Shown piece by piece: positions 39,603 to 64,000 of a stretch of DNA of 64,000 bases (position 1 is the stretch's first letter; the number at the start of each line of letters is the position of its first letter). Source of the DNA: Rhizophagus irregularis (lineage: Eukaryota); NCBI RefSeq assembly GCF_026210795.1, contig NC_089429.1, forward strand, positions 2,728,001 through 2,792,000, read 5' to 3'. The translations under genes were made by a program, and so were the position numbers. The notes under the pieces were generated by a model, which did no database searches, was not told where the DNA came from, and was given only the letters and a program-made list of their open reading frames with translations.

Positions 39603-40407
39603 AAATTACGTCATAGTCATATGATTTTATAGTAAACAATAATATTAAAATTCAAAGTTAACGAACTTCGCATCCAGTAATTCGATTTTTATGATCTTTA
39701 CACAGTTAGATTTAGCTCATTGAGAGAATCCCAATGATATGTATTTCATATTTGTAGCATCAATATTGACAGAGTTATTCACATTTAAAATTGGTATTAA
39801 ATAGTCTTATAATTTTTATAGTAAACAATAATTTTAAAATTTAAAGTTAACGATCTCCGCATCCAGTAATTCGATTTTTATGATCTTTACATAGTTAGAT
39901 TCAGCTCATTGAGAGAATCCCAATGATATGTATTTCATATTTGTAGCATCAATATTGACAGAGTTATTCACATTTAAAATTGGTATTAAATAGTCTTATA
40001 ATTTTTATAGTAAACAATAATTTTAAAATTTAAAGTTAACGATCTCCGCATCCAGTGAATCGATTTTTATGATCTTTACGCGGTTGGATTCAGCTCATCG
40101 AGAGGATTCCAATGATATATATTTCATATTTGTAGCATTAATATTGACGGAGTTATTTACATTTAAAATTTGGTATTAAATAGTCTTATAATTTTTATAG
40201 TAAACAATAATTTTAAAATTCAAAGTTAACGATCTTAGCATCCAGTGAATCGATTTTTATGATCTTTACGCGGTTGGATTCAGCTCATAGAGAGGATTCC
40301 AATGATATGTATTTCATATCTGTAGCATCAATATTGACAGAGTTATTTACGTTTAAAATTTTATATTAAATTATAATTATAAAAATCACATGACTATAAT
40401 GTAATTT
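39603..40407. repeat. Four tandem 189-190 bp units bounded by ~27-bp inverted repeats
   Basis: CATCCAGT recurs at 39671, 39860, 40049 and 40239; AAATTACGTCATAGTCATATGATTTT pairs with AAAATCACATGACTATAATGTAATTT. Confidence 0.85.
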
Positions 40408-41088: not shown

Positions 41089-42331
41089 AGATCTATATTT
41101 TTTTATTTATTTGTTTTTTTTTAAAAAAAGTATACATTATTTATCTTTAATTTTTTTTATTACAGTAATATAAATCAAGCACCTACACCAACAAATACGC
41201 AAATTTCAATATCTCAAGAGAATCCATCATTTTTATCCAACTACTTGAAGTAGCCTATTGAGAAGAAGTTTCGTTACATTTTACTACAGCCACCACTTCA
41301 AAATATAAATCAGAGTAAGTTAATTTTACCTTTATTTATTTTCTTTATCTCCTGCATCAATATGTCGCATTTGAATTTCTCATGGAGTATTATTTATTAA
41401 ATAATACAACTGACGGTTTTCAAATTTCATTATATCATGTACTACAGGTTTTTTTTAATTTTGCCACCCATAGTTGTTCTGCCAAAAAATAATCTAACCT
41501 AAAATTAAAATAATTAAATGTATAAATAATAATAATAGATAATTAGCCAATATAAACAGCTTAAAAATAAATAATAAATAAATAAATAAATGTAACGTAC
41601 CTGATTATAGTTTTTTTTTCAATACTTGAAGTAGAAAAAAGTTAATTTTTATCCTTTAGATTTTGCAAAAATTCTGGGATGTACTGGAAAAAAATATGCA
41701 TATAAGGAGTAACATCCTCTTTTCTATATAAACCTGGTATTTGTGATAATGAATTTAATTGTTCTTGACTTGGCCAATAAAATAATTTAATCCATTGCTT
41801 TGCTTTATTTTCAAAATTATCAATTTCAGAATTCGTTAGGTTAGGACTTTGTAAAACTAAGTATAATTCATAAAAATTATGCTATAGTTTTTGAATATCT
41901 TCACCGCATTAGGAAAATATTGCAGAACCTTTTTCTTGTCAGGTCCCATTAATGAAGTCCAATTCTACTTGCCACTATTTGATCTTGATTTAAAAAATTC
42001 AAAATGAACTTTAAATGATTTCATGGTTTGTTCAATTTGATTTTTAATTTCTCGTTCAAATTCCCTTTTTTTAAACAAATCATTGAAAAAGCATTCCATT
42101 AATACATCAGAAATACGTAATAATAGATGTAACAGGATCCTGAACAATATATATAAAGGTAGGTTTTGAGTTTAACCAACATATAAAAATTTTTCCTATG
42201 TAAAATTTATTATTGCTTATTTGATAACATAATTTTTAAATAGTCAGATATAATTATGCGTAGCAGAGTATTAAATTATTAATAGTCAGATATATATTTG
42301 CATAGCAGGATAGATTTTTTTAATATATATA

Positions 42332-42831
42332 TATTGTGCCTCAGATCAATTCTTGCCTCAGATTGAAGCTCACGCACCTCACATTGAGATTGTCACCTGA
42401 CACACCTCATTTGAATCATTCAATAAAGTCTGTTATAAAGTAAACTTTTTTTCTCATTAATTAAACCACTTTTTGTAACATAAACAAACTTGTGCACCAT
42501 AATGAGTTACATGTTTCCTGAAATATTTATGTAAATCCGATTTATATTGAAGTTTATATTTATGTTTTATCTGAAAAATAATTAAATTTTAAGTCATTTT
42601 TCAAATGAAAAGATTTAATAAGTATGATTCCAATTAATCTGAAATTATAGGATTGTATACTTAAAATAATGATAAATAAGTTTACTTAGTACTTAAAAAT
42701 ACATTAAAATTGGAAATTTTGATGTTTAATTATAGCTCATTTTTATTAGCAATTGAGGTACGTCAGATGACAATCTCAATGTGAGATGCGTAAACTTCAA
42801 TCTGAGGCAAGAATCAATCTGAGGCACAACA
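42332..42831. mobile_element. Ginger-like (TGT..ACA) MITE in a TA tract
   Basis: ~80-bp TIR T(A/G)TTGTGCCTCAGAT..; TATA flanks. Confidence 0.75.
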
Positions 42832-43477
42832 TATATATAATATAATATCTGATATATATTTACATTTTTCACATTAAAAAAAATTAATAAAATATATAAA
42901 CAAAGTTATAAATATATTTGTGTAAAAAAAAGTTACTATTTTTAATACAAAGAATAAGTTAATTGTATACGTAATATAGGAATCATTTTGAGACGTAATT
43001 GTGTAATGTGTTTTTGATAAAACAAATACGTGTCCACGTAACAGTAAAATTATAAATCATATACGTGTTCATGTAACAATAAAAAAATATATATTGAAAA
43101 TGAAAGCAATAGGTGGATGGGAAGGGAAAAATAAGTGGTTTTCTGTTTTTTTATAATTTTACACTATAATTTTTGTAATAATCAATAAAAGTTATTTCAT
43201 TTTTACTTAGAAAATTTTTTAAAAATATTTTTTTTAACAAATTTCACAGTAAATTTTAAAAATAAAAATTCCACGTATTGGTGGCATTACAAAAAACATG
43301 AATAAATCCATAAATATCTATTCAATCATAATAAATATTTATATATATAAGTAGATTCGAACCTGCTGAACAACTTTACTTAAGACAGTTTCAGATGTTT
43401 CCTTTGACTAAAGTGCTTAAATTACGCTCTGAAGTTACAGAACAAATATACGAAATATTAATAAAAAACATTTATAA

Positions 43478-43686: not shown

Positions 43687-44716
43687 TAAGTTGTAATATT
43701 ACAAAAAAATAATAATAGCTTTATCTATACATTATTTCAAAAATTTTTGTTTTTTTAGTTTTTTTTATATACATATTTTATAAAAAAAATTATATATAAA
43801 TATATATATGTTATAAAATAAATTGCTTAGCAGTGTAAAAAATTTATGGGTTAGATAAAAGTTTGCTTAGCAGATATGAAAAATATTTGCTTATTGACCT
43901 TAGTAAATTTTGAATTTTTAACTGACCTATATATATATTGTTTGGGGTCCTGATGTAACTCATCTGGAATGTAATTTTCTTGTTTAATAATAGGAAATAG
44001 CAATGGTTTTTTTTGACCTGTGAAAATTTTAAGATTAATTCGAATTTTTACATAATTATTTTTATAAATTTACACTTACACTTTGTGTTTTTATAAATTG
44101 GCCAGTATAAATCCATGTTCTAACGAACACTTGCCTCATAATCGCAAAATAGACAAAAATATTTTGAATTCAGTGCACCTAATCCCATTATATTGTACAT
44201 AAACTTCCAGTCAGCTGAAAAAAAAAACTCAATTAGCCAGTGCATACCGCTAATGGAAATCCCATTTTCTTGAAGATCTTGAAGTTGATATTTAAATAGA
44301 TTTCCAACTTTGGCTAATGTTTCGTTTCTTTCTTTACTTATATATAAACAAAAACTGATTTTTTATTATTTAGTAAATGTTCCAAAAAGAATTTATAAAT
44401 TATATTACTTATACTAATGATCAGGTTTTAACACATTGCCTTTTTCATTAATAAACACACAGTCATCATAACATGATTCTGTTTACAACCCACATTTCTT
44501 CCATCTCCACCAAGTTTCAAATTAATTGTATTTCCTGGTTAAAGAATTGGTGGGTTTGAACTATTCCAAATAAGAATAAGTATTTGAAGGAGATTTCTAA
44601 TAGATCAATAAACACCATTACTAATTTCTTGTTCATCAACTATAATTTCATCAGGATTACCTTGATGTTCTTCATCATCAAATATAAGTTGTTGATTAAA
44701 TTCTTTATCAGGATTA

Positions 44717-44916
44717 TACAGGTCAAAATGCTAAAAATTAGCAAAAAAAATGGCGCGAAAAGCAGTGGCTATTCTTGGCTATTTATGACTATTTATGGCT
44801 GTTTTTGGCTATTTGCGAATTAACTTATACTATTTGCAAATAGTTTATACAAATTTGCAAATAGTTTATGCAATTTGCGCCATTTTTTTTGCCTGTTTTT
44901 GGTCATTTGACGTGTG
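44717..44916. mobile_element. CACTA/CMC-type MITE inserted in the transposase
   Basis: Imperfect ~45-bp TIR (T/C)ACA(G/C)GTCAAA..AAAAATGGCGC; 3-bp TSD TTA; terminus resembles that of 3227-3688. Confidence 0.75.
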
Positions 44917-45198
44917 TTAATTGTTCCAATAGGTATTTGTTCATTAATCAATTTTGTAATCTTTATTCTCCTTTGTGCAACTTGATATTCACGTATTAAT
45001 CGTGCTTCTACAGAAGCAAGCCTTCGATATCCATCACGGCCTAATAAAGCTTCATCACATGCGCGTACATAGGCATTTAATTTTATATAATTTAATGATA
45101 AGTTGTATTTTATATTAATAATATGTTCTTCATATTCCAATTCCATATTACGTAAGTGAATTGGTTCTCTAAATTCTGAAAACATCCGATGTTATAAA

Positions 45199-46569
45199 CA
45201 CTAGTTGAAATAGTCCAAATCAAATAGAAATCGATCATCTGATTTTAATCTGATTTATAACTCAATTTTGACCAATTTTTTTAAAAAGGCAATATTCCAT
45301 TTGGATTCCGAGTGGTTGCCACTCAGATATAATTCAGAATAAGAAATCAGATATAAATCGGATATAAATTAACAAATACTACTAAATTCGACACTATTAA
45401 TTAGACATAAATCAACTAAATTTATTATATAAATCAGATATAAATCAGATATAATTCAATTACAATTCAATTTATAAATTCAGATATACTATAAAATATA
45501 TTATAATACGTAAAACTAAAAAAATAGAGTAAATAAATTCATATATGCTATAAAATATAATATAATATAATACACAAAACTAAAAAAAGAGTAAAATTAA
45601 TTCAGATATGTAATAAAACATACTATAATACGCAAAACTAAAAAAAAGAATAAATTAGTAATAAAATAGAATTCTGAAATTCCAACCATTAATCTTCTTG
45701 CATAAAACTTTCTGATTTATCCGCTTTATCTTCCAAAATTGCATCTAAATCTTCATCATCAATATTTAAATCGTCTGTATATTCTGTATCATATACCATA
45801 TCTGGTTGATCAACATATGACCAATCGGAAGCATCATCCAGTGGTACTTTATCATAGCATTATATCTTGTCATTATAGTTCTGAGATCACAATTGCTGCG
45901 CCGTTTGTCCCACTCTTAAATGTTTATCGAGAACATTTCTTAATAAAAGTCTCAATTAAAATGTAAAAATAAATAAAATCGGAAAATGTAAAAATAAGTA
46001 AAATCAGAATTAGTAAAAATTTATAGCAAAATAAATTATCAAGATAAAATAAGTAATCTCTTCTGAGCGTTACGATAGATCATAAACATTAATGACTGAT
46101 TTTGAACCTTCATCTTTAGTTTCACTCACTTCTGGTGAATGATATGCACAATTTGCCAGAATTTTTAACAGATCCCGTTTTCCATAACTCGTAATTTGGC
46201 TATCCTTTTATTAAAGAGATATTTTGCAGCCTTTATCCTTCGCAATTTTTTCTGATTGATAAATTTAAAATGAATTAATATGGATTATTAATTTGCCGCT
46301 GGATTACATTACATACATCATTTAATCTATTATTGGCATGAACTTGTCAATTGTCCATGCTTTCTTTGCCGGATATCCTCAAACTTAACTTAGATCGTTG
46401 AGATTTATGTAGGCTACTTAACCACCTTGTTACCTGATTAATGGATGGTTGATAATTCAGGAATTAATTTGAGTCGAATTTTAATGTTTTTTGCACTGTT
46501 AAACATTTCATTGTAGTTTAAGTTATATTTCTCATTAAGTGTTTTTAAGATTGATTTCATTTCAATCTA
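45199..46569 (-). mobile_element. Left end of an older CACTA element with accessory-gene remnant
   Basis: Starts CACTAG; many AAATCAGATAT subterminal repeats; minus-strand SPEVSETKDEG..VYDLS*RSEE|LLRNVLD remnant truncated at 46569. Confidence 0.6.
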
Positions 46570-47341
46570 CCCAGTAAGAAAAATCGCATACTGAAAATAT
46601 ACTGAAAATATACTGAATTTTAAGAATATTTAACTATATAATCATGTATATTATAAGTATAAATTAAATATAATTTTAGTATATTTTATGTAAGATATTT
46701 ATATCCATAAATAATGCTAAAATTATGTTTAAATATACTGTATTTAATATGTAAAAAGCTCATAAAACACCCTTAAATTTTGCCTCTTTAAGTATATTTT
46801 AAGTGCAAATTTTATGTCATTAATTTCTACTTAATTTCAGGATAATTTTATTTCGTGTTATTATATATATTTAAGTATATTTAAAGCCCATTTTCAGTGT
46901 ATTATAAATATGATTCAATTGTATTTTGCATATATTTTAATAATATTTCAATTAGAAATAACATATATTTTTAGTAGTTTTAAAGGTCAATTTAGTTCAA
47001 ATAAAATAATATTTTATGTATCTTTTAATTAAAAATAGCATACATTTTTACTTGCATTAAAGATTATTTTAATTACATTTTTACATTTGATAATAATGAT
47101 ATTTTTAGTATATAAATACAATATCGATATGGTTTGATTATATTTCAATAATAATTCGTGTACATTTTAAAGGCTATGCTAATAACCAATGATACAAATA
47201 ATTTCTATAGTAAAGTAAAATGTTTAATTTCATATTTCTGAAACTATATAAAACGAAAATAAATAAAGAATAAAATAAATAAAGAAAAGAAGATACAGTT
47301 AGGAAAACTTATTTTTCATACCCATTACACAATAACTCGGA

Positions 47342-47838
47342 GACCCATTTAATTTAATGTACTTATTAAAGAGGGGAAAAAGTTATATTAGTAATTTAGT
47401 TATTTAATTTTAAATCCAATACAATAAAGTTTGATGCATACCTGTTTAATAAACATAATTTTTAAGTAAAAAATACTTATACATGTCTACAATTAACACC
47501 TCGACACGGACCTATTTAATTTAATGTACTTGTTAAAGAGGGGAAAAAGTTATATTAGTAATTTAGTTATTTAATTTTAAATCCAATACAATAAAGTTTG
47601 ATGCATACCTGTTTAATAAACATAATTTTTAAGTAAAAAATACTTATACACGTCTACAATTAACACCTCGACACGGACCTATTTAATTTAATGTACTTGT
47701 TAAAGAGGGGAAAAAGGTATATTAGTAATTTAATTATTTAATTTTAAATCCAATACAATAAAGTTTGATGCATACCTGTTAATAAACATAAAAAAATACT
47801 TATACACGTCTACATTCTACAGTTAACACCTGACACGG
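47342..47838. repeat. Three tandem ~167-bp units
   Basis: AAAGAGGGGAAAAA at 47368, 47535 and 47702. Confidence 0.9.
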
Positions 47839-48368
47839 CTACATTAAAATAGAAAAAATAAAAGAATCAGTTAATATTAATTTCGACAGTAACTAACTAT
47901 TGGATAATTGATATTGTGGTGGAAAATTTATGTATTCATACCGTCTCTCCCTGTAATATAGTCAGCTTCTCTTCTAAGTAGGATTAATTAAAACTTTCTA
48001 ATTCCAGAAATTCAAGGTTTTGTATCTTGTATCCTTTATTCCTGGTAAAATATTTTTCGTCAGTAAGTTTATAAATAATATAGACTTATTACCAGAATAA
48101 CATAGACTTATTACCAATATTTTATCAGAAAAGAGAAAAGTAAAATAAAAAAACAGTGAAATGTTTTGCTTATAATAGGTATTTCATCTATTTCATCATC
48201 GCTTATCCGTGTTTAACTATTTTTAGATACAAATAAAGTTAATGGGATAATCTTATTCATGTTTAGCTATTTTTAGAAATTAATCAATATACAACAAATA
48301 TTCTTAATTATCGGGTTTTTTACTAGAACATAAAAAGTTTTATTATAAGTGCGAACTGCTGCAAGAAA

Positions 48369-51300
48369 TCAATGCCCAATATTTTCCCAATTAGAGTCAT
48401 CAAATGCATTTTCTTTATCAATTATATAATATCTATTATCTATTTTAGCAAAACCTATACAATGATCTAAACATCTTACATCGATAAATTCTTTTGATCT
48501 GAATTGAGTAAAATGTTTACATCCATATTCATCTTCTACAATTTTTGATGTTAATTGTACATAGGCTAACATGTAAACCTGATGGTTGAATTCATGGACA
48601 AGATAATAATTTACGATTCCATATATATCTACAATAACGAGTTGAGGAGGCGCATTGGGTCCGTGGGCAAGTTTATCTATTGTGCGTCTTATCTAAAAAT
48701 ATTTATAAATAAAATATAAAATCAATATTAAAATTATATCAAAAAAATAAAAAAATAGCAATGATAGTAATCAAAGATTATAAATTTTACCTGAAGCACA
48801 ATAATTATTTCTTGCAATTTTATTATTTCTTTTTATACAACAGCTACTAATATATTGTCCATCTGAAGTTCTTAATCTTCCATATCTTACACCATAATTA
48901 TTAACCTCCTAAAAAACGAAATTATTTTGTTATTGTAATGATGAATTTAAAATTAAATAAAATAAAGCTTTATATTACCATTTCTAAATCATTACGATTT
49001 ATATTGCTTGATCCTTCGTAAAATTTAATCAGATGTTTGTGTTCTTGGCTTGCAGAGAATATTGAGTAGAAGGGGAATAAAATTCTTCTTCATACCCTTC
49101 AGTACTAAAGACCCGTTCCTTACTCCATTGTTTTAGCGGGTTTTCTTTGAAAATAGCTTTTGAGATAGAAAAAAATGGTAACATATAAAATTGCTGTAAC
49201 AAAGTAAGCATATTTGCAAGGTTGCTATATGGCTTGATCTTTGATTTAATGAGTGGTTGTAATATACCACACACCCTTTCCATAGGAAACTGCCAATGGG
49301 TTCAACTAGGGCCACAATATTTAATAGAATTTGCTACATGTAAGAGGTAATGGAAACTTATCTTACATGCTGCTAAACGTCGGGCTATTGTTCGATAATA
49401 CTCTCTAAAATAATTAATCATTATTTTAATTATTATACAATTATAAATTATAAGACAGAAATCATTACCTTTCATAATAATCTGAAAATTTTTTAAGCAA
49501 AATTTGTACATCATCAATTTGTTCTTCAGATATTTCAGGTTCTAAACAAAGCTTTACAGACTTCACAAAGTTTGCCCATCCTTGAAGATGCCTATTATGT
49601 AACGAAAAGTAAAATTTACTTTTTGATTAGTTAAAAAAATTTAAAAATGTATTAATTTAACTTTTTACTTTTTATTAAAATACCTTTTATCCAGATACAT
49701 CTTTAGTAATGGTAATGAAAATAAAATTATCCAATTTCTCCATTCTACCGCTTTGTAACCATTATGATATTTAAATATGTCACGTGGAGGGCGACCAATT
49801 TCAATAGGCATATTTTTTTTTACTTTTTCCATTTGTATGCCAATACTTTCCCACTGTGATTTTGATAACTCATAATCACTAGACAATAATAGATTGTTAT
49901 AAAAAAATTTTCCACTCCAATGTGCATTGACGTGCGCCATTCTCGAAGAATAAATGCATTATATCTGTTGGGAAAGACCATGGAAATAATAATGTTTGTA
50001 ATTTTAACAATTCACTGGACCCTTTAATTCCTGTATAGTAAAGTAATAATAATTAATACAGAGATGTAAGTATACTTTTACTTTTTTTCTCAAGAAAATC
50101 ATACCTGTTTCTCTGATCATTTCATCTTTTCGATCTTTATTCGTTTCTTCTTCAATTAATTTTCCCATATTGATCGTGTCATCATGATTTCTTATATTGC
50201 AAAAAGCAGATGATGGATAGTATATGTGTTTATTTGATGGGTGACAAGTCCCTTTTATCATACAAAAACGACAACCTTTATACGAATTGTGTCCAGAGAG
50301 GTTTAAGCTTTTGCTTAACGCTGGAACATCCCCCGTCCATGTTAATAAATGTGCGCGTAAAATAAAAGGTTCATTTGTTCGTCCATCTATACATTGAACT
50401 CCTTCTATAATATTTAACAAAATAAAATTTCAATTATAGAAAAAATACATTTTTATTAGATATTAAAATTAGCTATACCTTCAAGTTCTTGTAATTCTTT
50501 TATAAGAGGGCATAAAAAAGAATTAAAATTCTTTGGCGAACGGGGACCTGGTATTATCATTGTTACCAGTAGATTTTCTTTTTTTACACGAATAGAAGGA
50601 TGAAGATTATTATTTATTAATAAGATGACCCAACAATCATCGGTTCGTTGTTCAAAGATCTGATATCCATCACATGTCCCGGATAGTGCAATATCCCGTT
50701 CATCTTTAAAAAAACCCCTTTGTAATAAATCCTTATATAACCTATTGAAAGAAACATATTTTAATGGCCTTTTTTTTAAAAAAAAAATTTACTTTAGTAA
50801 TTAAATTATACTCACAATCCATCAAAGATATCAGCATATATTTCCTCCTCTCCTTTGTTTTGGGAATAATTACTTCTATATTGTAATTCTTCGGCTCTTT
50901 CTTTATTCTTGTATTGAATTATTAGGCGTTCTTTTACCGAAAAAAAAAATGTTGTATTTACAGGTTTGCCATTATCATCAAATCTGTTTTCACCACAAAT
51001 AGGGCAACTGGCTAAATTTTCATATGATGATGTAAATGCAATACAACTGTTTTTGCAAGTATCGTATCCATGAGGTTCAAAAGGAACTATGCTATTGATT
51101 TTTTTTTCAACTTATAGATTGCTAAATTAGAATTAACATTATCAAGTATTTTGTTGAATGCGATGTCAGATATTGAATGGAGTACTTTTGTATGTAAAAG
51201 ACGTAAACCTTGAATCAATTCATCTAAAATAAATAAATATTATTATTCTATCAAAATTAAAATCAATAAACATAGTATTAACTGTACTATCGTTTATGTT

Positions 51301-51972
51301 TGTCATTTCAGATTCCTCAAATTCTTTATCATCATCTGTTAATTCATCATTCTCTTCAGAAATATATGCACTTGTTTGCGAACAATCACTTTCAGTTTCT
51401 ATGTCTCCTTTATCATCTTCTTCATCACAATCTTTATTATCAAGACTTTGCCTATCACTATTCTTATCGTAATCTTCGTTATTAGGAATTGGATTACCAT
51501 TATTATAATCTTCGTTGTCAAGAAATGGCTCATCGCTATCATCATCATCATAATCTTCTGATCTGCAATTAACATGATTTTGATGATTATTAAAGTATTA
51601 TTATAACAATAATGTTTAATAAAAGTAAAATTTACTTTTTTTTATAAAACAATTAATTAATTACCTTTTTGGTATGTCTTTTAAAATTACAGGAACATGA
51701 TCGTTATTTGAAATATTGCTTTCTGAACTTGTATCTGATTTATCCGATTCATCGTCTTCGAACTTTTTTTTTTCAGCTGCGTTACAACTTGAAATTGATT
51801 CACTATCGCTTTTTGTTTCTGATCCGCTTTCTGCTTCAGATTCATTAATTTTTTCAATATTTGCTTTTTCTCTTTTTTGATGTTTTTTAAAAGTTTTTCT
51901 AGTAGACAACCACTTTCCGTTACCATCTTTAGAATTTATTTTACAAATACGACAAGAACAAAGAAATGGCAT
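48369..51972 (-). pseudogene. CACTA/EnSpm (Tnp2, Transposase_21-type) transposase, multi-exon, disrupted
   Basis: YDTCKNSCIAF..CPICGENRF, YADIFDG, GTCDGYQIF, IIPGPRSPKNFNSFL, TGDVPALSKSL..GHNSYKGCRFC, DIMH, GYKAVEW, HYLLH, WQFPMER; in-frame TGA at ~49302 and frameshifts. Confidence 0.9.
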
Positions 51973-52145
51973 TTTGAAACGTGATAGAATTTATGTAATG
52001 ATATATTTTTATAAACAATCACATAGTTTGTATTACATGATTGTATTAAATTTACGCATTAAAGTTAGAGGTTGTGTTACAAGATTGTGTATCGTTATTA
52101 GAGATGATATAATAATGACAATATTCGTAATAATTATACTGATTG

Positions 52146-52310
52146 TATTATGAGCAATGGTTCACACAAAGCCATACTAATTGTTCAAAGCCTATTATGA
52201 GCAACGGTTCATATAAAAGCCATAATAATTGTTCAAAGCCTATTATGAGCAACGGTTCATATAAAGCCATACTAATTGTATTAAGAGATTGTGTTATGAG
52301 CAACGCTCGT
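52146..52310. repeat. 47-48 bp tandem repeat (3 copies + partial) between the divergent TE genes
   Basis: TATTATGAGCAA(C/T)GGTTCA.. at 52146, 52193 and 52241. Confidence 0.88.
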
Positions 52311-52884
52311 ACTGATGACCGATAAATTGAATCATTATATTTTATGTATTATTATCAATGAAGTTAATTTAACCGTGTTAATACTGACAAGAATGTAGTC
52401 CTAATACTTGTAATAATCTTTCATTAATAATTTCATAATATAATTTTCATGATATTTTTTTTCTTTATGACACCAACACTACAGTGAAATGCAAAAGTTA
52501 TATTTAAAGGTATAAACTCCTTCTCACCAATTGTTCGCAAGGCTCTCAATCAGTCAGAACCTAAAATAAAGTTATATCGGTTATTAGACATGTTTGATAC
52601 TGGTCTCCTTAGTGTCCTCGAGCTGGGCTTTGATGCATAAACGAGTCGTAATATATTATTGCACAGGGGTAATGAGTCAGTTTTTGGAGAGGCACTTTGT
52701 TAGACCATCAGGACAGAAAATCAGAAAATGGTGTCGAACAACTATAAATGGTATTTCGCGATCAATAAAAAATAAAAATAAACAACGCGTCAGTCGCGTC
52801 ACGTTTAAGTATAAAGTATAAATACATGCTATCTTTAGTGATTCTTCATTTCTTTACGCATTTTTTTAAAAAAATTTAAAAAAA

Positions 52885-53830
52885 ATGGAACAAACACCCG
52901 AAACTGAGGTATAAAAGTAAAAATATAAAAATATTTTTAATAATCTATAATCAAAAATTCTTACTTTATTACTATATTATAGCTCAGTCATATATAAGCC
53001 TACGTCTAAATATAATTTACAAGATGCGTTAGGATTAAAAAATGAAAAGCAACGCTGGCTTGCTTATTTGGTAACTATTTATTAATTTTTAATAAAAGAT
53101 AAAAATTGTTTTTTAATAGTAAATTTTTGTAATAGGAGATAATGCGAGAATGTCTCTACGAAAAGAATGTAGATTTTACCGCCGATTATAGGAGTCAAAA
53201 GCATACAATAACTGCACAAATAGTTCGTTCTGTAAATATTAAATTTTAATTTTCGTCATTTCTTTTTTTTTTGAAGTATACTAAAAATTATTATATTATA
53301 GTTTAAAAAAAAGGCTCCTGACTTCCTATAACCGCAGCCGATTGGGCTGTAAAGGAGATGCTTGTTAGTACTATACAAAATAAACGTAAGTTAATAATAA
53401 CTTTATTTATACCTAGTTGGTTTATAGTAGAAATTAATTATTTCATTTTATTTATAATAGGCTATTATCTGAAAAAAAAAAAAATGAATTAGAAAATAAT
53501 TTAAGAGTTCCACCACAAAATTCTCCAGCATTACAGGACCGTCCTCCACCATCTCCTCAAGCACAACAAGATCCTCCTTCTCCAGTTGAGCCTTCTGATG
53601 AACAAGTTCAGATCTGGCCTCCAGTTGAGCCTTCTGATGAACAAGTTCAGATCCGGCCTCCAGAACCACGTACTGATGAACAAGTTCAGGTCCGGCCTCC
53701 AGAACCACGTACTAATGAAAAAGTTCAAAGTGATCCTCCAAAAAGGGTCCGGAAACAACATGTAAATGACAAAGAAAATCAAAATAATGTCCCCAAAAAA
53801 AGAGGAAGAAAAGCAAAATCAAGTAAATAA
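52885..53830 (+). pseudogene. TE accessory (TnpA-like) gene divergent from the transposase; 39-bp repeats in the last exon
   Basis: Exons read KYNLQDALGL..WLAYL|EIMRECL..VDFTADYRSQK..|FKKKAPDF/ITAADWAVKEML..NKR; 4x39-bp PPVEPSDEQVQI repeats (53580-53735); ends KKRGRKAKSSK*; frameshifts. Confidence 0.65.
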
Positions 53831-54218
53831 ATAAACTTGATCTCGGAGATGACAATTTCTTCGTTCTTGTATAAAACGAATCATACATAGTTTTGACTTA
53901 ATTAGTTCAATAAATCTTGTTATGATAAACTATTGGTTAATTCATCTTCTCATACACTATATCAGTATTCGGCATTTCATTCGAATTAAATTAAAAATTT
54001 GAAGACGTTTAGATTACCTCCGCATAAATAATTTGAATTGTGTAACGCGTAATTTGTCCACGCCTCATTACGCAATGTTTAATTGTTCTAATCATTAATA
54101 AATAATCTACACACTATAAATTACTTTGATAAGAAATTTTACACATTTAATCTTTTTTGTTCTAAAAAATCGCTTAAATCTTATAAATACCTTTCCCTTC
54201 AATTATGATAACTTACAA

Positions 54219-54726
54219 ATGAAGATGGTTCACAAAAGAAGTCAAAATAAATTACAAGAACGAAAAAATAAATCCTTTTCGAATAATAAAAGAAAAAGAG
54301 ATAAGGTGAGTGAACACTTGAGAACCGCCTAGAGTGGTTACTAGGTTCGCCCGTAGTTTTTCAGATCTTTTAGATAGCTTTTTTTATTTTTTTTCTTCTA
54401 TTTTTTATTTTTTTATTTTTTTATTTTTTTTTGGAGGGTTTAATAAAAGATGGAGTATATAATTGTATTCGGTTGTTATCTGGTTTCTAATTAAAAAATT
54501 GGTTTAGGTCAACTCTTTAAACGAAACAATTGAAAATAAAGATAAAGGTAATTATAAATTATTATTGTATAAATAATATATATCAATTACTAACATTTAT
54601 TTAGAAATTACACAATTAAAACGGCAAAAAACATTTGCCGTTGAATTATATCAACAAAAGTTAAACCAAATAATAGAAATAGAAAATAAATTAGAAAATA
54701 ATTGCAAATGTATAGAAAATGAATAA
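54219..54726 (+). CDS. Small basic + coiled-coil (bZIP-like) protein, 3 exons, ~82 aa
   Basis: Exons 54219-54305, 54508-54547, 54605-54726 splice in frame: MKMVHKRSQNKLQERKNKSFSNNKRKRDKVNSLNETIENKDKEITQLKRQKTFAVELYQQKLNQIIEIENKLENNCKCIENE*. Confidence 0.6.
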
Positions 54727-55331
54727 TTTTGTTAATAAATTATATGTTATTATAATTCAAGAACTACGTGAAAAATTTTTTTTTTTGATGGGAGAAAAAA
54801 ATGATATGTTCCCATATGAAATAAAAATGATATATCTTCCATACAAAACAAGTTTTGTGAGAAAAAAAATCATTTTTTCACGAGAAAAGGAGTTTGTCAA
54901 ACAAGATCTGCTACTTTTACGTAATTACTAATAGCTCATTTATTTAATATTTGTATAATTTATAAAATAAAATACGAATACTGACAAAAAGTAAATTTTA
55001 CTTTCAGTTAACAACCAGATCGGCATACTGTACTATTCCGATTAAAGTTTCTAGCACGTTGTTTGTAATTAATTTTGTACTTTTCTTTGTCCCCATTTTT
55101 CCCATTTCACAAAAAATTCATCAGATCTTATCGTTCTCGTGTATTTGCTAAAATCCTTCTTTTTGAAACATGTATTTTCTCACGCATTTTTTCCTATATA
55201 TACAATCCAATTACGTAAAAATTATTTTAAGTTTTCGTAACGTCTAAAACTGTGGTCTGCTTGGAAGGTTTTAGCCTGCCGAGATAGTTTTAATGATAGG
55301 AATAACTTTTAATTTATATAATAGATTCACG

Positions 55332-55968
55332 ATGGTCGGACACCGCTCTCAACGTTCGAAGGAAAAACGAATTGCTCGCATTAAGAGCAAGAGAGGAAGT
55401 GCTCGTCAGGTAGTTGCAGGTGGGTTCCCTCTACATGATATCCTGGGGGCTTAGATTGTTCTAAAGAGGGCTTGTGGACGTTTGTCCTGAAATGATCCTG
55501 TGGACGTCTTTGGATTGTTCTAAAGGTGACTTGTGGACGTCTGTTCTAAAACGAATCTGTGGACGTCTAAGCGGTATCGGTGTCAACCTAAGATGGAGAA
55601 ACCCGCTTGGTCGAGCTGCGCATAGATCAAGTTAACCAATTTTTTTTCCCCCATTAGATTACATAAAGGAATTGGAAAAAAAGGTGCAGGAACTTCAAGA
55701 GCAAGTGAATGGTATGGATCGGGCTTACAGAGATGACCAGAGAGAATTGCTGCGGGTACATAATGAATTAAAAAAGGCAGAGAGGAAGTAAGTAATCAAC
55801 TTTTTTGCTAATAAGTTTCCTTAAATTAATATAATTTTTCACTTTTATTTTATTAGGATTACTTGTTTAGAAGGGGAGGAAAGGGATGAAGAAGGCCAAG
55901 AAAGAAGACAAAGAAGGGGACAGGGACGAGGGAAAAGGGGAAACGTTGTTGTAAGTTGTAAATATTGA
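55332..55968 (+). CDS. Small bZIP-like protein, 3 exons, ~109 aa
   Basis: Exons 55332-55419, 55658-55787, 55857-55968 splice in frame: MVGHRSQRSKEKRIARIKSKRGSARQVVADYIKELEKKVQELQEQVNGMDRAYRDDQRELLRVHNELKKAERKITCLEGEE..RGQGRGKRG..*. Confidence 0.65.
55451..55568. repeat. Intronic ~59-bp duplication with four TGTGGACGT motifs
   Basis: Directly visible. Confidence 0.75.
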
Positions 55969-57179
55969 CGTGCTTGGTAAACTAGTTTTAAGAATGAAGG
56001 ATAAAATCTAGCGCAAAGAGTAGTGACAATACAAAGTGCAATAAAATTACAGGTATTGCGAATAAAATGACTAAAGAGCCAAAAGACAGCGAATAAAATG
56101 ACTAAAAAGCCAAAAGACAGAATGAAAAAAAGAAAGATATAAATGAATGTAAACGAAAATGATGCAGACCTAACCTGACGTTATACATTATATGTTATAC
56201 TGTACGAACCCTGTTGTGATATTAAAGTCAATCGGCAAATATATATACAGTATATATATTTCAAATAAATCTTAATAAAAAAATCAACGTGTAACTGAAT
56301 GATAAATTTTCTTTACCTGAAGATTTTTTTAGGTCTCCCGGTTCGTAAGACGAAAACGTCTAACGTAATGATTCAATTTATGATCGCATTGCACATTGCG
56401 CAAGTTTAATAACCCACCTATTATTTTTTTTTATTTATTTATTATATATCTAATAATTATTTTCACACGAGAAAAAAAAATTTTTTGTCAATCCTAACTG
56501 TTACATTCTGCTACCATCAAAATTGTCATTTTTTTTTTAGTGAGAAAATTTTTTATTTGCGGAAAAAAAAATACCGAATGGGAGAAATGTGGATGTTGCA
56601 CAGAGTTTAATGTGTCATGCTAAGGTGGTGGAACATCATTATTATAACACAATTAAATCTTACGCGTGCACTTCCATTTTTGGTTCATCAAATCCACTTT
56701 GCCATTAAAGTATAAATACACCGCTTCCATTAAAAGATGTAAAGATGTAATTCAATATCGAATTACATATTACGATTAATATGTCCAAACAAAAAAAAAT
56801 CGAATTACATATTACGATTAATATGTCGCAGCAAAAAAGCCATGAAATAGAATTACATATTACGATTAATAAATTTATCAAAAAAAAAATTAAAAATTCA
56901 TTTTTTGGTTTTTCTTTCTCTAATTCTCTTCTTTTTTTAAAAAAATACTGAATTCTTTCTACCACCTTTATCGCAATTTTAAAATATGGACTCTTTAAGA
57001 TCATTAAAAATACCAATTATCCAGCTGCAAAAAAAGTATTTTACCTTATAATTTTGATTCTGGAGAACAACCCGAAACAGAACAGCCTGCAACAGGTTTG
57101 CAAAGTTAATTATTTATTTTGTATCTAATTCTAATAAATCAATTAATATCTACTTCAATTTTGAATCAATATTTCATAA

Positions 57180-59025
57180 TTGGATATATTTAAAGATAAA
57201 CAAGAACCATTGGTCCTAATAATTTCTCCAAGTGTTACAAGTGACGATGGTTCTTTTGGTTCTCCTAGTGTCGGGGTTGGGGTTTCTGAAACTTTTAGTA
57301 ATAATGGCACTAAAAAACCAAATATAAATAATGAATTTGACAATGATGATAGGAATGAAGAACAGGATCATGGTCGAAGGTTAGTTTTAAAATTAATATG
57401 ATTTTATATTTAATATATGTGCGAACACGGTATAACAGTAATATTAAAGTTTATTAAATAGTTATTAATTAACACAATTTTATTTACAAAAAGTAAATTC
57501 CTTTTTTCTTATTTATATTTTATAGATGATCAAGTAAAAGTATTGGATACCAATACTGATGATGCTAACGAAGATTTTTGTAAGTTTCAATTTATATCTT
57601 ATAATCTTAGTAATTTAGAGCAAACAGTAATATTTAAATTTATGTTTATTATTTTCTATTTATTGTAATGTATAAGGTTCAACCCAAAAAAATGATAAAA
57701 AAGAACGAAAATTGGTAAATTTTCGCATTTTTTTTCTTACCTTGTTGATTAACAAAAGAGATACTTACTTTTTGTTATTTTAAATTATATTAGATACCTC
57801 GATGCGTAAAAGGGCTAAACCGGGTATTGTATAATTCACAGAAAGTAAACTCTGAAACTTGAATTTGAAATAATATATATATTTTTCTTTAGACGAAAAA
57901 ATATTATTGGCCATTAATAAGATCGGAGGTCCCACAATAGATTCGTTATTATATTCATTGAGCAAATTGAAAAATACCGGAGTTAAAAGTGTAACAATGA
58001 ACTTGGTTAATAATAATATACGATTTATGGATTCCACAGGAACATTAGTGATAAAGCCAAATCACGTTAACTCCGATGATATAACAATTAATGCCAGTTT
58101 TCCTCATTATGATTATAATCAAGCCTCGGATCTCAGCTTCGAGGCAAATATTATCGAATTAAAGAAATTCAAAGAATTGGATATGGCAAGTATAAGATTG
58201 GCGGAAGATTTGCATAAGCTGCTAGGTTATATTGGTAAATTGCCAAATAATCCACCTATACGTGATAGGTCAATCTTCAGTAAAAAAGAAGAGTATAGAG
58301 AAGCCCTCATTAGTCATTTGGAAAAGATTAATTCAACACAAGATTTTCAATCTTTTCGTGGTACTCAACGTATTAATTTGATTTCTGATGACAATCAAAA
58401 AAGTTGCAGTTCTTTTAAAATTTTACCAATTCGTGTGCAAGAAAAGACTTCATCACTTACTGAATTATCTGATGAATTCAAGAAGATTGCAAAAGATTTA
58501 TCGGAGGATATATTTTTATCCGTAATGGGAGAAGCAAATGAGCAAGGAAATAAAGAAATGGCCAGACGTAAGGAACTAAGGTTTCATGTCGGGTTTTTTA
58601 AGTCATACATACAATTACAGGCTTTTTGTGAGATAAACTTAAACAGAAAACAATCAGAGACGACAAAATCTCAAGCAAAAATATTAATTGCTCAATTTTA
58701 CCCCTTAATTTCTTTACCGAATTTGGAATTGATGCTTCAGCGAGCACCACGTATATACAGGTTACTAGAAGTAGCCAATTTTGATTGGCGACTTTTAGAT
58801 TCTTTCGAAGAATTAAGCGCATGTTTTTTTAAGAGTGGAGTAAAGACGGCAATTAACTTTGAAATATGGATTAATTTGGTCTGTACAGGCAAGCTGATTA
58901 GTTATGACGAAGAATTAAAAACTCAAGAAAGAAATAGGGAAAACAAGAGGATTAAAATTGAAATTATTAAGGAATATTTTGATATTTCAGGGGTTAATTT
59001 TGACGAGATGGTTGGTAATGAGTAG
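57180..59025 (+). CDS. Multi-exon gene of unknown function; 5' end uncertain
   Basis: Microexons near 57527, 57678 and 57794, and a 1.13-kb open terminal exon containing QRAPRIYRLL..RLLDSFEELSA. Confidence 0.65.
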
Positions 59026-59359
59026 GTAGTAAACAGAGAAAAAAAAAATTTTTTTGCAGTCAAATAGTTTTGCATTATAATTAGAATGAATTTATATTAT
59101 AATGATAAAAAATGGACTCGAAAAGCGTTGCAACCTCCAGATTTATAAATTAGCATTATAAGTAATTTAGTAATTTTACATGAATAAAAGGCTAAATAAT
59201 ATGCAATCTTTTATTGTTTGCGCATTCTAACATTTGCTAAATAAACTTGCTATAATTGCTATCGTTTACTATCATAAATAAATAAATAAATAAATCAATT
59301 TGTGGCTTAGCCTATTTTTACATGAAAAAAACTCCGATATGTTATTTATGTATACGTTT

Positions 59360-60190
59360 TTATGTATCTAAAAAATTAAATGTTAATTAATGATCTAGTT
59401 TAAAATTTTAAATTTATAATATTAAACATACCGTCCCATATTTTATTCTCTTTTTCTGCTGTTATTTCAAATTCCTCAAAACCATCATACTCTTCAGAAG
59501 TACCACTTTCTGTCTCTGAATTATCATTATCATAATTATCAATGATCTTAAAAGGTCCATAATCATAATCATCAAGAATTTGATCATCGCTAAAGTAATT
59601 ATTAGGAAAATGTAAGTTATATTTTTTATTATAAATAATCGATCAATTACCTTTTAGATGTATCTTCTAACACTGAAGGAAATGGAACATCAAAGCTTTG
59701 ATTATTACTGTCACTAAAGTCATATTATAACAACAATTAGTAAATTAGTAAAAGTAATTTTTACTTTTAGCAATGACAGTACGATATATTAGCTAATATT
59801 TTAGGAGGTATAATGATAATTTTAATTATTCGTAGATAAAGTAAAAAAATTGACTATGCTGATTTTAAATAAGGGCAATTTTAACAAATAAGGGAAGGTT
59901 TTCACTTTGACAATCTCAATTTAGTGTAGCGAGAGGTCCCTGACAATAGGAGAAATAATGGTAAGACAACAGTAAAACAAAAATTTTAAAAACATTGATG
60001 AAACTTACCGAAAGTTCATCATTCCAAAAATATGTTTTTCTTTCATATTTACCTAAAGTCCATTCCAAAGTCCAGATGTTCTGATTCTAAAAACGAAAAA
60101 ACGTTAGTTATAATATTTTTAATATAAATACATTTACACCTAATTACCTGAAAGGCCGTTCCAAATGGTTTTTTCTTTCAAGTATCTATA
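59360..60190 (-). pseudogene. Multi-exon remnant encoding an acidic protein
   Basis: Phase-compatible GT-AG exons ~59651-59714 and ~59431-59589 (DDQILDDYDYGPFKII..EEYDGFEEFE); upstream exons contain stops. Confidence 0.4.
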
Positions 60191-60689
60191 TAGAAGGAAG
60201 ACATAAAATAGAGTAATAGATTGATTAATATACGTGAAGTATGAGTCTTCAGAAATAAAAATCAGCAAAAACAATGTGTATAAATAAGATAGAACAAGTA
60301 TCGATATGCGCCCAGTCTTAAGCCGCAGGATCCTCTTCAAGAAAATTTTATTTTCTAGAAGAAGAAACCTGAGTCTTGGACGATACCAATCCTATGTATG
60401 CGCTTAGTTTTAAGCTGCATGATTCTCCTTAAGAGAAGAAACCGAAAATAACTTAACAATTAATAAATTAAAATTTAACTATGGGCATAATACTGGTGTA
60501 ATGATGAAAAGATTGATGACATAGTAAATCATGTAAAATTTCTTTTTAGGTCATATTAACGAGGATTTTTTTTCCTTTTTTATGTATTCAACCGCAATAT
60601 GGAGAATCGTGTGAAATTTCTTAATGAACTGCAAATGCTTTTAACTCTCTTTTTTCCTTTTTTTCAACATCCAATTTTATATCGTAAAC

Positions 60690-61919
60690 ATGGATATCTT
60701 GCCAGAAATCGACTTAAGTGAGAACAGAATTACGAATAATACAATTGACAAACTAATCGAAACGCTTAAAACTACCAAGTTCAAGGTTAACCTTATTATA
60801 CAAATTAAGATATATTTTAAATATAAATCTAAAGTTTTTATTTGAATTAGAAATTGAACTCGAGAGTGTCTTCACTAAAAATAACAAACAAGAAACCTTT
60901 GAAATTTTGAGAAAAATATGCGAAGTAATTAAAGAAAGCACAAATTTGGAAGAACTGATAATTAGTAAAAATGCACTAGGAAAAAGCGGTGCAAAGGCGT
61001 TAAAAGTTTTTTTAACTAATAATGTTAATTTAAAGCACTTGATAATCGACGACGCGGGGGTTAGGCGAAGGAGGTACAGTTATATTAGAATCGTTATTGA
61101 ATTCGAGAAGGAAAACTTCTTATTTAGAAACATTTTCAATAAAAGAAAATGTTTTAGGAAAACAGTGTTCCAAACTGCTTTCTATGGTTCTACATAAACA
61201 TAAAATTACACTAACAAAAGTAATTTTGTCTCGAAACAGCTTTTATAACTCAGATCTTTGTCGAATAATAGAGTCTTTAAGTTTGTGTAAGAAGTTACAA
61301 ATTATTAATCTCGAAGATAATTTTTTCACTAAAAAAACATCGAAAATGCTTAGTCGATCTTTGGCTAACTGGCCGGATTTAAAACAACTAATAATTAATG
61401 ATTGTTTGATATGTAAAAAAGGTGTTATATATATTTTAGAGGCATTATTAAAGGGTACCAATAAAAATATTGAATATCTGGGGTTTCAATATTGTAGTAT
61501 TGATGAGAATGGGTTCTATACTTTGGCAAGTATAATTAAAAAAAGTCTAATGTTAAAAGTGGTGGAAATCAATGGGAATTATTCGATTAAAAAAAAATGT
61601 ATGTCAAAGCTAAATTTGGTCTCTAAAAAAAATGGAACCTTGATAAATGGATTTGATGATTTAATTAACGAAGATGATGAGGGAGAAGAAAAGGAGGGAA
61701 AGGAAAAGGAGGGAAAGGAAAAGGAACTGGACGATAATGAGGTAGAGGAAATTCATAATGACATGAAAGGGAAAGGTCGATGATGGAAAGGAGGGAAAGG
61801 AGGAGGAGGGGCTGGACGTAGAGGAAGAGGAAGGAGACTATGATGAAAAGGAGGGAAAGGAGGAGGAGGGGTTGGACGTAGAGGAAGAGGAAGGAGGCCA
61901 TGATAGAAAGGAGGAGTGA
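60690..61919 (+). pseudogene. Divergent RanGAP (Rna1)-like LRR gene with acidic tail; three single-base frameshifts
   Basis: IDLSENRI|LESVFTKN..ISKNALG..DAGLGEGG..NLEDNFFT..LANWPDLKQLIINDCLI..FQYCSI..EINGNY..FDDL + D/E tail; frameshifts near 60858, 61056-61060 (G5) and ~61766. Confidence 0.8.
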
Positions 61920-62194
61920 CTGATGATGAAATCATGAGTTTTATAATAATAATAAGATAGTGCCGTAGTACAGTTGCGATTTTATCGTAAAATTAAAATA
62001 TTTTGTATATATTGTGCCAGCTGGCAACTTAATAAACATCCCATGACTTTAAATTTTAGCTGAAAAGTTAATTGAACGAATAATTTACTTACATTAATTA
62101 TTCTACGTAAAAATCATTCATAATTTTTTATTTATTTTTTTTTTACATTTTATAATATAAAATTATAAATTCAGTCTAATGTGATAAATCGGAT

Positions 62195-63185
62195 ACTATT
62201 ATTAACCAAATTCATTGCTACACTTTTAACTCCAGTTTTTTTCAATTTGCCCAAAGAATAGAATAATGAATCTATAATAGGATCTCCAATATTACTAATA
62301 GCCAATAAACTTTCTTTGTCTAAAGAAAAAAATATATATATATTACTTCAGATTCAAGTTCACAAGTTTTGCTTTCTGTTAATTATACAATACCCGGTTT
62401 AGTCACTTTTTTACATATCGAAGTATTGCCTAATATAATTTAAAATACCAAAAAGTAAATATTACTTTTGTTAATCAACAAAGTAGAAAAAAAATACGAA
62501 ATTTTACCGATTTTCACTCTTTTTTTATCATTTTTTAGGGTTGAGCCTTATATAGAAACAATAAACATAAATTTAGTATTATTGTTTGTTCTAATTATTA
62601 AGATTATAAGACATAATTTGAAACGTACAAAAATCTTCGTTAGTATTATTGGTATCCGATATTTCTAATATTTCTACTTGATCATCTATAAATAAGTAAA
62701 GAAGAATTTTACTTTTTGTAAACAACAAAAGAAATGATGAAAAAGAACTACCATCACTTTCCCTAACATGTTTTTTGTTTGAATTTCCTTCGATATCTCG
62801 CGATGCTTATAATATAAATATGAAAATTGGATTAATAACTTTATAATAATTATACATAACAAAATCTCAATATTACTGCTATACCGTGTTCGCCTATATA
62901 TTAAATATAAAATCATAGTAATTTAAAACTAACCTTCAGAAAGACTTTACCAACCGTGCTATTAAGATTAGAAAGATCGATATTTTTAAAGATAATCCAG
63001 AACCATTTGTCCTAATAATTCCTCCTAGTATTACTGGTGGTGATGGTCCTCCTGGTTCTCCCGGTGGCATTGTTTCTGAAACTTTTAGTAATAATGCACT
63101 AATAAAAAACAAAATAAAAATAATGAAAATAATGAACTCTAACTTGGCATCGAAATCTATAATTATGAAATATTGATTCAAAAAA
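62195..63185 (-). pseudogene. Inverted, truncated paralog of the 57.2-58.0 kb gene segment
   Basis: 62195-62938 is a diverged reverse complement of ~57377-58020 including introns; 63160-63183 matches 57159-57182. Confidence 0.8.
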
Positions 63186-64000
63186 ATTGATATAAAATTC
63201 GATTTATATTGCCACACATTTTATTTTTTGTTTTTTTTTGTTCTCATTTTTTACCTGCACAATTCTTGCATTTGTCTTTAGTTTTTGACATCTTTTTTCA
63301 AAAAATAATTCGTGTCTTTTAAAGAAAGAAAGAAATTTAGTTTATAAAATTAAATAATCTAATTACGTTATTTTATTTAATTTTTTGCCGATCGAAATAT
63401 TCATGTACTCGATCAGAATATTTTAAGGACACATCATCACATACCAGGTCATTTGTGAAACCGATACGAATAGTATATAGTCCTTCCCGGAATATTTTAA
63501 AATATTACAATTCGAAACACTATTTTAAATATCCATTTGTACAATTTCAGTATATTTTAAGAATATTATATTAACATACCTAAATTACTGATAAATTACT
63601 TTTAAGGATATTTTCCATATCTAATCAGAATATTTTAAAATACCAGTCAATATTACATTTAAAAATTAAGTATATTTTTCGTATAATTTAAACTTATTTA
63701 TTATTATAGAACACTATTTTAAATATACTGTTCGTACAAATTTCAGTATATTTTAAGAATATTATTACTATATAAGGATATTTTAACCATAAAACTAGTA
63801 CAGTTTAAGGATGTAGACTTTTTATAGGGCTAATTGATATTTAGAAAAAGAAAAATTAAAGAAAGTATTATAAAATAATAAAATTAGCAACAAACAGATA
63901 TGTTAGTAGAAAATTCAGTATAAATTTGTGGAGCCAAAAACGTTAATTATTGAAATTAATAAAAAATTGGTAGTTTGTAAAAGTTAGTATACGAATTTGT

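What the first reader, a model, noticed from the sequence alone, without database searches (positions are those of the whole stretch)
46570..64000. Giant cargo-carrying CACTA/CMC element with a nuclear-regulation payload
Seen: a sharp CCCAGTAAG junction cuts an older TE gene and is followed by AAAATATACTG repeats. The same motif reappears, mostly inverted, at 63.5-63.9 kb. Between lie a Tnp2 transposase, a divergent accessory gene, two bZIP-like microgenes, an unknown gene with its inverted paralog, an acidic-protein remnant and a RanGAP paralog, with no recognisable housekeeping gene. Established: CACTA elements have short TIRs, subterminal repeats and capture genes. Inference: this is one >=17 kb DDE-mobilised gene island, functionally like a Starship but CACTA-driven, carrying candidate nuclear regulators.
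Basis: partly seen in the sequence, partly recalled or inferred. Interest (0 to 1): 0.85.

Follow-up and report, generated by a model that had tools for sequence, protein, structure and literature searches.

The report
Large fungal transposon carrying rewired RanGAP
A complete 17-kilobase cut-and-paste transposon of the plant-symbiotic fungus Rhizophagus carries a conserved, multi-copy offshoot of the nuclear-transport regulator RanGAP whose hallmark RanGAP motifs are replaced, and which likely serves the transposon rather than the fungus.

Summary
Real, and complete inside the window. The element is 46570-63829 (17,260 bp), CCC...GGG, with CTA on both sides. One contig from another run joins 46569 straight to 63833, the uninterrupted form. 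Two full-length 11.8-12.1 kb sister elements and four more single ends start at the same bases. The Tnp2 transposase (PF02992) has D-D-E, C(2)C and H(3)H motifs and the family is spliced; this copy is broken as assembled. Proteins match Rhizophagus irregularis, where transposase, unknown gene U and the RanGAP-like gene recur as neighbours at many loci. U and the accessory gene belong to the family core; only some subfamilies carry the RanGAP offshoot. It folds like Rna1p and has dN/dS 0.16, but the FTGR, DNAFG and GRNRLE motifs are replaced, mostly by clade-fixed swaps, so it is likely not a normal Ran GAP. First-reader corrections: the right end is not beyond 64000, the duplication is 3 bp rather than TA, bZIP is unsupported, and the acidic remnant is a second transposase fragment. 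Large multi-ORF EnSpm elements are known; no paper found in my searches describes a transposon-borne RanGAP offshoot. Cargo function is untested.

The parts
46567..46569 (+). left copy of the 3-bp target-site duplication CTA
   Evidence: sequence; present once in the uninterrupted form
46570..47019 (+). left terminus CCCAGTAAGAAAAAT and subterminal 11-mer repeats
   Evidence: first 15 nt identical in L015 and L017, which have other flanks; tandem 11-mer 46588-46617
47342..47842 (.). 167-bp tandem array, about 3 copies, downstream of the transposase
48369..51972 (-). Tnp2/EnSpm DDE transposase, 10 coding exons, about 965 codons; 4 frame breaks and 1 in-frame stop as assembled
   Evidence: PF02992; splice joints in run X19; read-through with X gives D354, D444, CRFC 463, HYLLH 694, E718
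52886..53830 (+). accessory gene divergent from the transposase, Pro-rich repeat tail; family core
   Evidence: spliced GT..AG joints in X19; homolog in L014/L015/L017, 72% aa, dN/dS 0.09 over 78 codons
54450..54726 (+). predicted spliced coiled-coil microgene
   Evidence: read by eye from sequence; no Pfam hit; inferred
55332..55968 (+). basic micro-ORF followed by coiled-coil exons; not a bZIP by Pfam
   Evidence: a weakly similar basic ORF plus coiled coil lies in sister L017
56986..59025 (+). gene U, about 515 aa, no Pfam family, named homologs only in Rhizophagus; family core
   Evidence: dN/dS 0.15-0.21 against 6 loci; present in the 12-kb sister elements
59359..59770 (-). 5' remnant of a second Tnp2 transposase (the 'acidic remnant')
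   Evidence: in L001 and L009 it runs on into an exon 88% identical to transposase aa 195-220
60000..60300 (-). decayed tiny gene with a hydrophobic N-terminus; looks intact in L010
   Evidence: 73% nt to L010; ATG and splice donor lost in the window; inferred
60690..61919 (+). RanGAP-derived LRR gene with acidic tail; frame breaks near 61058 and 61780 as assembled, first site intact in L001
   Evidence: model pLDDT 84, TM 0.71-0.73 to Rna1p; dN/dS 0.16 against L010
62184..63140 (-). truncated inverted paralog of U (5' half), at the place U holds in the 12-kb sister family
63380..63829 (-). right subterminal repeats (7 inward-facing copies) and terminus, read inward CCCTATAAAAAGTC
   Evidence: same start base in 6 other loci
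63830..63832 (+). right copy of the target-site duplication CTA
45200..46569 (-). 3' part of the older repeated gene that the element interrupts
   Evidence: depth about 600 in X8 against about 45-55 for single flank contigs; intron restored on joining
63833..64000 (-). 5' part of the interrupted gene
   Evidence: 30 of 30 loose letters of the X8 contig match 63833-63862

Best explanation
This is a complete 17,260-bp EnSpm/CACTA (CMC) DNA transposon that likely moved by cut-and-paste through its own Tnp2 transposase, and that carries a RanGAP-derived gene whose product is predicted to have lost normal Ran GAP activity and likely works as a decoy or adaptor that helps the element persist. Shown: both ends, one 3-bp duplication with its uninterrupted form, a DDE transposase with CMC motifs, spliced family transcripts of transposase and accessory gene, many copies with the same neighbours, and purifying selection on U, the accessory gene and the RanGAP offshoot. 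Inferred: the transposase binds the subterminal repeats and leaves a 3-nt staggered cut; the long form arose from a 12-kb ancestor (end-U-microgenes-Tnp-accessory-end) by inversion and nesting of a sister segment that already held U next to the RanGAP offshoot. The confidence given is for the element; the selfish-helper role of the RanGAP offshoot is about 0.4 on its own.
For: Uninterrupted form: X8 contig leaves the window at 46569 and its 30 shown letters match 63833-63862. Termini: 6 of 22 loci start at the base matching 63829 with 5 different visible flanks, 2 of these also end at 46570. Motifs D354/D444/CRFC/HYLLH/E718 in the window and the same motifs in L014, L015, L017; C(2)C and H(3-4)H define CMC (PMC12730594, passages). 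Neighbour triples by accession number on contigs of equal length: OCT59_011108/011104/011101-2, CAB4389698/693/690, CAB5202647/652/654, CAB4425653/657/660, PKY32794/792/791. In the OCT59 assembly RanGAP-like tags fall at 10 loci on 8 contigs, 6 of 10 with a listed U tag within 3 numbers (lists are partial). dN/dS 0.16 for the RanGAP offshoot over 254 codons, pN/pS 0.29 (95% 0.22-0.37). Clade swaps: D>K, R>E and Q>R in 6 of 6 members, NN>DA and I>F in 5 of 6.
Against: Neither complete metagenome copy shows a duplication: 0 of 2 (TCT/AAA and CAG/ATA); collapsed assembly of a multi-copy element would explain this but was not tested. The duplication rests on one contig that likely comes from a paralog of the flanking repeat, not an allelic empty site. 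The window's transposase has 4 frame breaks and a stop, so this copy may be dead. TIRs are short and imperfect. The divergent RanGAP clade also occurs in two Funneliformis species, context unknown, so it may be an old host paralog. In a shared cytoplasm a diffusible product gives little copy-level benefit, which weakens a purely selfish reading.
Confidence: 0.85

Rival explanations
1. The element is real, but the RanGAP offshoot is an old Glomeraceae host paralog with a host role; the transposon captured and amplified it and the fungus keeps it functional.
For: 41%-identical 356-aa relatives in Funneliformis caledonium and F. mosseae share most swaps; strong purifying selection; the 12-kb sister family spreads without it.
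Against: In every locus where neighbours were visible it lies next to U (window, L001, L010; accession pairs); many annotated copies are split or truncated.
Confidence: 0.35
2. The RanGAP offshoot is now a passenger: the low dN/dS dates from before capture or from two independent captures, and present copies decay neutrally.
For: Frame breaks in the window copy and short annotated products; window and L001 differ too little to measure current selection.
Against: L010, at 72% nt and dS 1.2, already has U beside the gene, so selection acted while they were linked; L001 and many database copies are full length.
Confidence: 0.2
3. The stretch is a chance pile of nested repeats or a segmental duplication, not one mobile unit.
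For: Internal mosaicism (second transposase remnant, inverted U piece); no duplication in L015 and L017.
Against: Exact shared termini in other loci, the uninterrupted form with a single CTA, and an L001 copy running 56767-63696 at 93-98%.
Confidence: 0.07

Closest known systems
EnSpm/CACTA (CMC) transposons, including the CCC-ended TRC families of animals and fungi (PMC1636069, passages)
   Same: Transposase_21 domain, CCC termini, subterminal repeats, spliced transcripts, insertion into other repeats
   Different: 3-bp duplication here (one case) against 2 bp reported for TRC; two unlike ends with only 8 of 11 matching bases; 17 kb with several extra genes
Enlarged 16-20 kb En/Spm families of Chondrus crispus with 4-5 ORFs (PMC6431247, passage)
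   Same: superfamily, size and multi-ORF build
   Different: fungal host; content includes a host-derived RanGAP offshoot; the ORFs of the Chondrus families were not compared
TET/JBP-carrying fungal DNA transposons, including EnSpm with 3-bp duplications (PMC12730594, passages)
   Same: a CMC element in a fungus carrying a host-type gene thought to aid the element; 3-bp duplication
   Different: CAC..GTG ends and a catalytic DNA-modifying cargo there; CCC..GGG ends and a likely non-catalytic LRR cargo here
Starship elements (PMC12134995 abstract start; PMC13465315 passages)
   Same: mobile unit with accessory genes in a fungus
   Different: tyrosine recombinase, up to about 700 kb, Dikarya; here a DDE transposase, 17 kb, mostly family-core genes
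Drosophila Sd-RanGAP (PMC13460739, passages)
   Same: a duplicated RanGAP linked to a selfish element
   Different: Sd-RanGAP is truncated, enzymatically active and not on a transposon; this one is near full length with the hallmark motifs replaced; no drive is shown

Membership tests
EnSpm/CACTA (CMC) | Transposase_21 (PF02992) domain | tested here: met
   E 7e-13 on one exon; E 9.8e-22 plus DUF4218 on full-length family member P0189
EnSpm/CACTA (CMC) | D-D-E with C(2)C and H(3-4)H between the second D and E | tested here: met
   CDGY 354, WTGD 441-444, CRFC 463, HYLLH 694, FPMER 715; same in L014/L015/L017. Assignment of the three acids as catalytic is from motif position and recall, not from an alignment to a reference transposase
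EnSpm/CACTA (CMC) | conserved terminal trinucleotide and short TIR (CACTA in plants, CCC in TRC) | tested here: met
   CCC at both ends in the window, L015 and L017; inverted match 8 of 11
EnSpm/CACTA (CMC) | 2-3 bp target-site duplication | tested here: inconclusive
   met in the window (CTA, with uninterrupted form); 0 of 2 complete metagenome copies
EnSpm/CACTA (CMC) | oriented subterminal repeats | tested here: met
   7 inward copies in the right 450 bp (0 of 2000 shuffles), 2 in the left (4 of 2000); motif was drawn from these ends, so the shuffle counts flatter it; L017 shows 4 and 2
EnSpm/CACTA (CMC) | current transposition | not testable with these tools
   no allelic empty site or new insertion seen
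Starship | DUF3435 tyrosine-recombinase captain | tested here: not met
   no such Pfam hit among the frames scanned; the mobiliser is PF02992
RanGAP (Rna1p) | LRR crescent fold with acidic tail | tested here: met
   model pLDDT 84; top three Foldseek hits are RanGAPs, TM 0.67-0.73
RanGAP (Rna1p) | conserved FTGR, SDNAFG and GRNRLE motifs | tested here: not met
   FTKN, SKNALG and KENVLG in P0082; that these motifs carry the Ran-contact residues is partly recalled (source paper not held; Arg189/Arg191 discussed in PMC13317620 passages)
RanGAP (Rna1p) | stimulates GTP hydrolysis by Ran | not testable with these tools
   needs an assay
bZIP | Pfam bZIP domain | tested here: not met
   single exons scanned; only sub-threshold coiled-coil hits; a fused model P0133 gave the same

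The most novel reading that the evidence does not exclude
A cut-and-paste transposon of a multinucleate fungus spreads a rewired RanGAP that alters traffic through the nuclear pore, keeping silencing factors out or favouring carrier nuclei: a transposon-borne, nucleus-level counterpart of Drosophila Sd-RanGAP, with gene U as a second helper that may ride more than one transposon superfamily.
Probability: 0.15. Interest if true: 0.9.

Novelty: new variant of a known kind. Interest (0 to 1): 0.62.

Why it matters
It gives exact ends, a duplication and a gene map for a large, expressed, recently amplified transposon family in the model mycorrhizal fungus, where two-thirds of TEs are unclassified (PMC11075540, abstract start), and it ties two multi-copy 'gene families' (U and the 'Ran GTPase-activating protein 1' copies) to transposon content. 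The RanGAP offshoot is conserved yet remodelled at its hallmark motifs, so it offers a direct test of whether a transposon can tune nuclear transport, and of selection among nuclei in a shared cytoplasm.

Tried and rejected
Run search: no RNA holder listed. Reads were laid only on 44100-53400; expression of U and the RanGAP offshoot is untested. Run X21 holds next to nothing of the element or its flank, so it is no evidence of an empty allele. An exact pattern for both ends found 0 metagenome stretches; the sister ends differ inside it. U: model pLDDT 53, no Foldseek match at E 0.001, best VIA Z 6.1, Atlas neighbours only hypothetical proteins; no relative in viral or prokaryote contigs. The RanGAP tree is the quick tree, SH-aLRT only, with biased composition in the divergent rows; its 44 canonical rows were picked for having the three motifs (44 of 45 such), so those columns are conserved by construction, and the donor is not resolved. 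No complex was predicted: no Ran sequence was in hand. Whether R. irregularis keeps a canonical RanGAP was not tested. A giant element across 0.9-38.7 kb was considered and rejected: these are two copies of a small element. Earlier scan findings: nothing. Literature searches without a report of this element or cargo: (listings only, open-access library). Repbase, the curated R. irregularis TE library and paper supplements were not seen and may already hold the family.

Full report
Source and approach. The window is 17-39% GC per kilobase, mostly 21-32%, and its proteins match Rhizophagus irregularis at up to 99-100%, so I treat it as that species or a very close one. No genome was held. Evidence comes from sequencing-run contigs, metagenome loci and annotated proteins.

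The ends. CCCAGTAAG is unique at 46570 and the 11-mer is enriched (20 against 6.4 expected). Laying four runs on 44100-53400 gave one X8 contig that follows the window to 46569 and then continues with letters that match 63833-63862 at 30 of 30 shown positions. The window reads ..CAATCTA [CCCAGTAAG ... TTTTTATAGGG] CTA ATTGAT.., the contig has a single CTA. The element is therefore 46570-63829, 17,260 bp, with a 3-bp duplication. Joining the flanks restores a 66-nt GT..AG intron with in-frame exons on both sides; the insertion sits in its acceptor. The flank is itself repeated (depth about 600 against 45-55), so this is likely a paralogous empty site. A search with an alignment of gene U returned 22 metagenome loci. 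Six of the 22 begin homology at the base matching 63829, all with CCCTATAAAAA and unrelated flanks (one starts at its contig end); two of them, L015 and L017, also end at the base matching 46570 and are complete elements of 11,774 and 12,146 bp. Against the reading: neither shows a duplication (0 of 2). The ends match each other at only 8 of the first 11 bases and not beyond shuffle level over 530 bp; what they share is an oriented subterminal motif.

The transposase. PF02992 hits two exons. Run X19, RNA only by guess, has a 2,997-nt contig that skips 11 introns in the transposase region and an 860-nt contig that skips introns of the accessory gene. All 11 can be set at GT..AG, two by hand, so the family is transcribed and spliced; this does not show that this copy is. 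Read through with X at four breaks, the gene has 965 codons with D354, D444, CRFC, HYLLH and E718 and one in-frame stop at codon 710; the sisters carry the same motifs. X8 shows other letters at these four break sites at or near its full depth, so the window copy is either decayed or poorly polished; I cannot tell which.

The content. The 12-kb sisters hold, from the right-type end: U (41-43% aa), microgenes, the transposase (82% nt) and the accessory gene. U and the accessory gene are thus family core, both under purifying selection (dN/dS 0.15-0.21 and 0.09; transposase 0.22; dS is near saturation for the most distant pairs). The window form keeps a 5' half of U at the ancestral position and carries an inverted block: accessory gene, microgenes, full U, a second transposase remnant, a decayed tiny gene and the RanGAP offshoot. 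The remnant is identified by L001 and L009, where it runs into an exon 88% identical to transposase residues 195-220. L001 is a 93-98% copy of 56767-63696. L010 has U (46-48% aa) next to the RanGAP offshoot (72% nt), so that pairing is old. Accession numbers place transposase, U and RanGAP offshoot within 3-8 numbers of each other on five annotated contigs, and in the OCT59 assembly the offshoot appears at 10 loci on 8 contigs, 6 of 10 with a listed U within three tags. This is inference from numbering and partial lists, not from DNA. U has no Pfam family and no fold match. In L004 and L005 a U homolog faces a hAT transposase (PF05699, E 1.3e-20), but no ends were seen, so shared carriage is only a lead.

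The RanGAP offshoot. After its own clade and multi-repeat LRR proteins, the best full-length relatives among 1.84 billion representatives carry the canonical RanGAP motifs at about 30-34% identity; the best solved relatives are Rna1p and human RanGAP1, and the model matches them best (pLDDT 84, TM 0.67-0.73). Yet FTGR, SDNAFG and GRNRLE read FTKN, SKNALG and KENVLG. Of 42 columns at least 90% conserved in 44 canonical proteins, 25 are kept; several changes are fixed across the six clade members, three of them charge changes (the 44 were chosen by these motifs). The clade is one long branch (SH-aLRT 100, quick tree) and includes R. clarus and two Funneliformis species. dN/dS against L010 is 0.16. 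So the fold is kept under selection while the hallmark surface has been rewritten. That these motifs contact Ran is partly recalled: the mutagenesis paper was not held; passages of PMC12369474 cite it for a conserved Asp needed for GAP activity, and passages of PMC13317620 model Arg191 as catalytic while noting that yeast mutants of the matching arginines had no effect.

Mechanism. Most likely the Tnp2 enzyme pairs the two ends through the subterminal repeats, excises the unit and inserts it with a 3-nt stagger (0.85; inferred from family knowledge and one duplication). For the offshoot I favour a GAP-dead decoy or adaptor that benefits the element (0.4) over a host-serving amplified paralog (0.35) or a passenger (0.2). 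No binding, localisation or phenotype is shown.

Novelty. CMC families are reported in R. irregularis (PMC11075540 and PMC8647823, passages), 16-20 kb multi-ORF En/Spm families in a red alga (PMC6431247, passage), and host-type cargo on fungal EnSpm (PMC12730594, passages). Anti-silencing VANC proteins of plant transposons are a further model for U (PMC5735166 and PMC10398659, abstract starts only). My searches listed no paper on this family or on a transposon-borne RanGAP; Repbase and supplements were not seen. Verdict: a new variant of a known kind, interest 0.62, carried mainly by the conserved, rewired RanGAP cargo.

Noticed in passing
window 912-1873 and 37779-38741: Two inverted copies (96.6% over 969 bp) of a small non-coding element with CAGTCAACTC termini and internal 147-bp repeats; TA flanks both ends of the first copy, like a Tc1/mariner-type MITE (label recalled). 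Not one giant element.
   Followed up: partly
window 3700-36200: Ordinary gene island: PIG-N, polysaccharide deacetylase, BTB, arrestin, chromate transporter, cytochrome P450, with long intact frames.
   Followed up: no
window 3227-3688 and 42318-42845: Two self-inverted (fold-back) stretches, likely other small transposons.
   Followed up: no
window 39613-40371: 189-bp tandem array, 4 copies, 94% matches.
   Followed up: no
window 43850-45191 (-): Decayed transposase-like frames of the older repeat; no Pfam hit above cut-off, superfamily not assigned.
   Followed up: partly
L005 1259-5863, L004, L008: A U homolog faces an intact-looking hAT transposase, and L008 shows two unlike U genes back to back; U may ride several transposon superfamilies.
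   Followed up: partly
L010 2560-2830 (-); window 60000-60300: A roughly 40-codon three-exon gene with a signal-peptide-like start sits between U and the RanGAP offshoot; looks intact in L010, decayed in the window (read by eye).
   Followed up: partly
window 48227-51622: One X8 contig joins these places (3,394 bases skipped, only 23 letters on the short side): a possible internally deleted derivative.
   Followed up: no
P0209 / P0350: Funneliformis caledonium and F. mosseae each have a 356-aa member of the divergent RanGAP clade that keeps the Arg of the first motif but shares most other swaps.
   Followed up: partly
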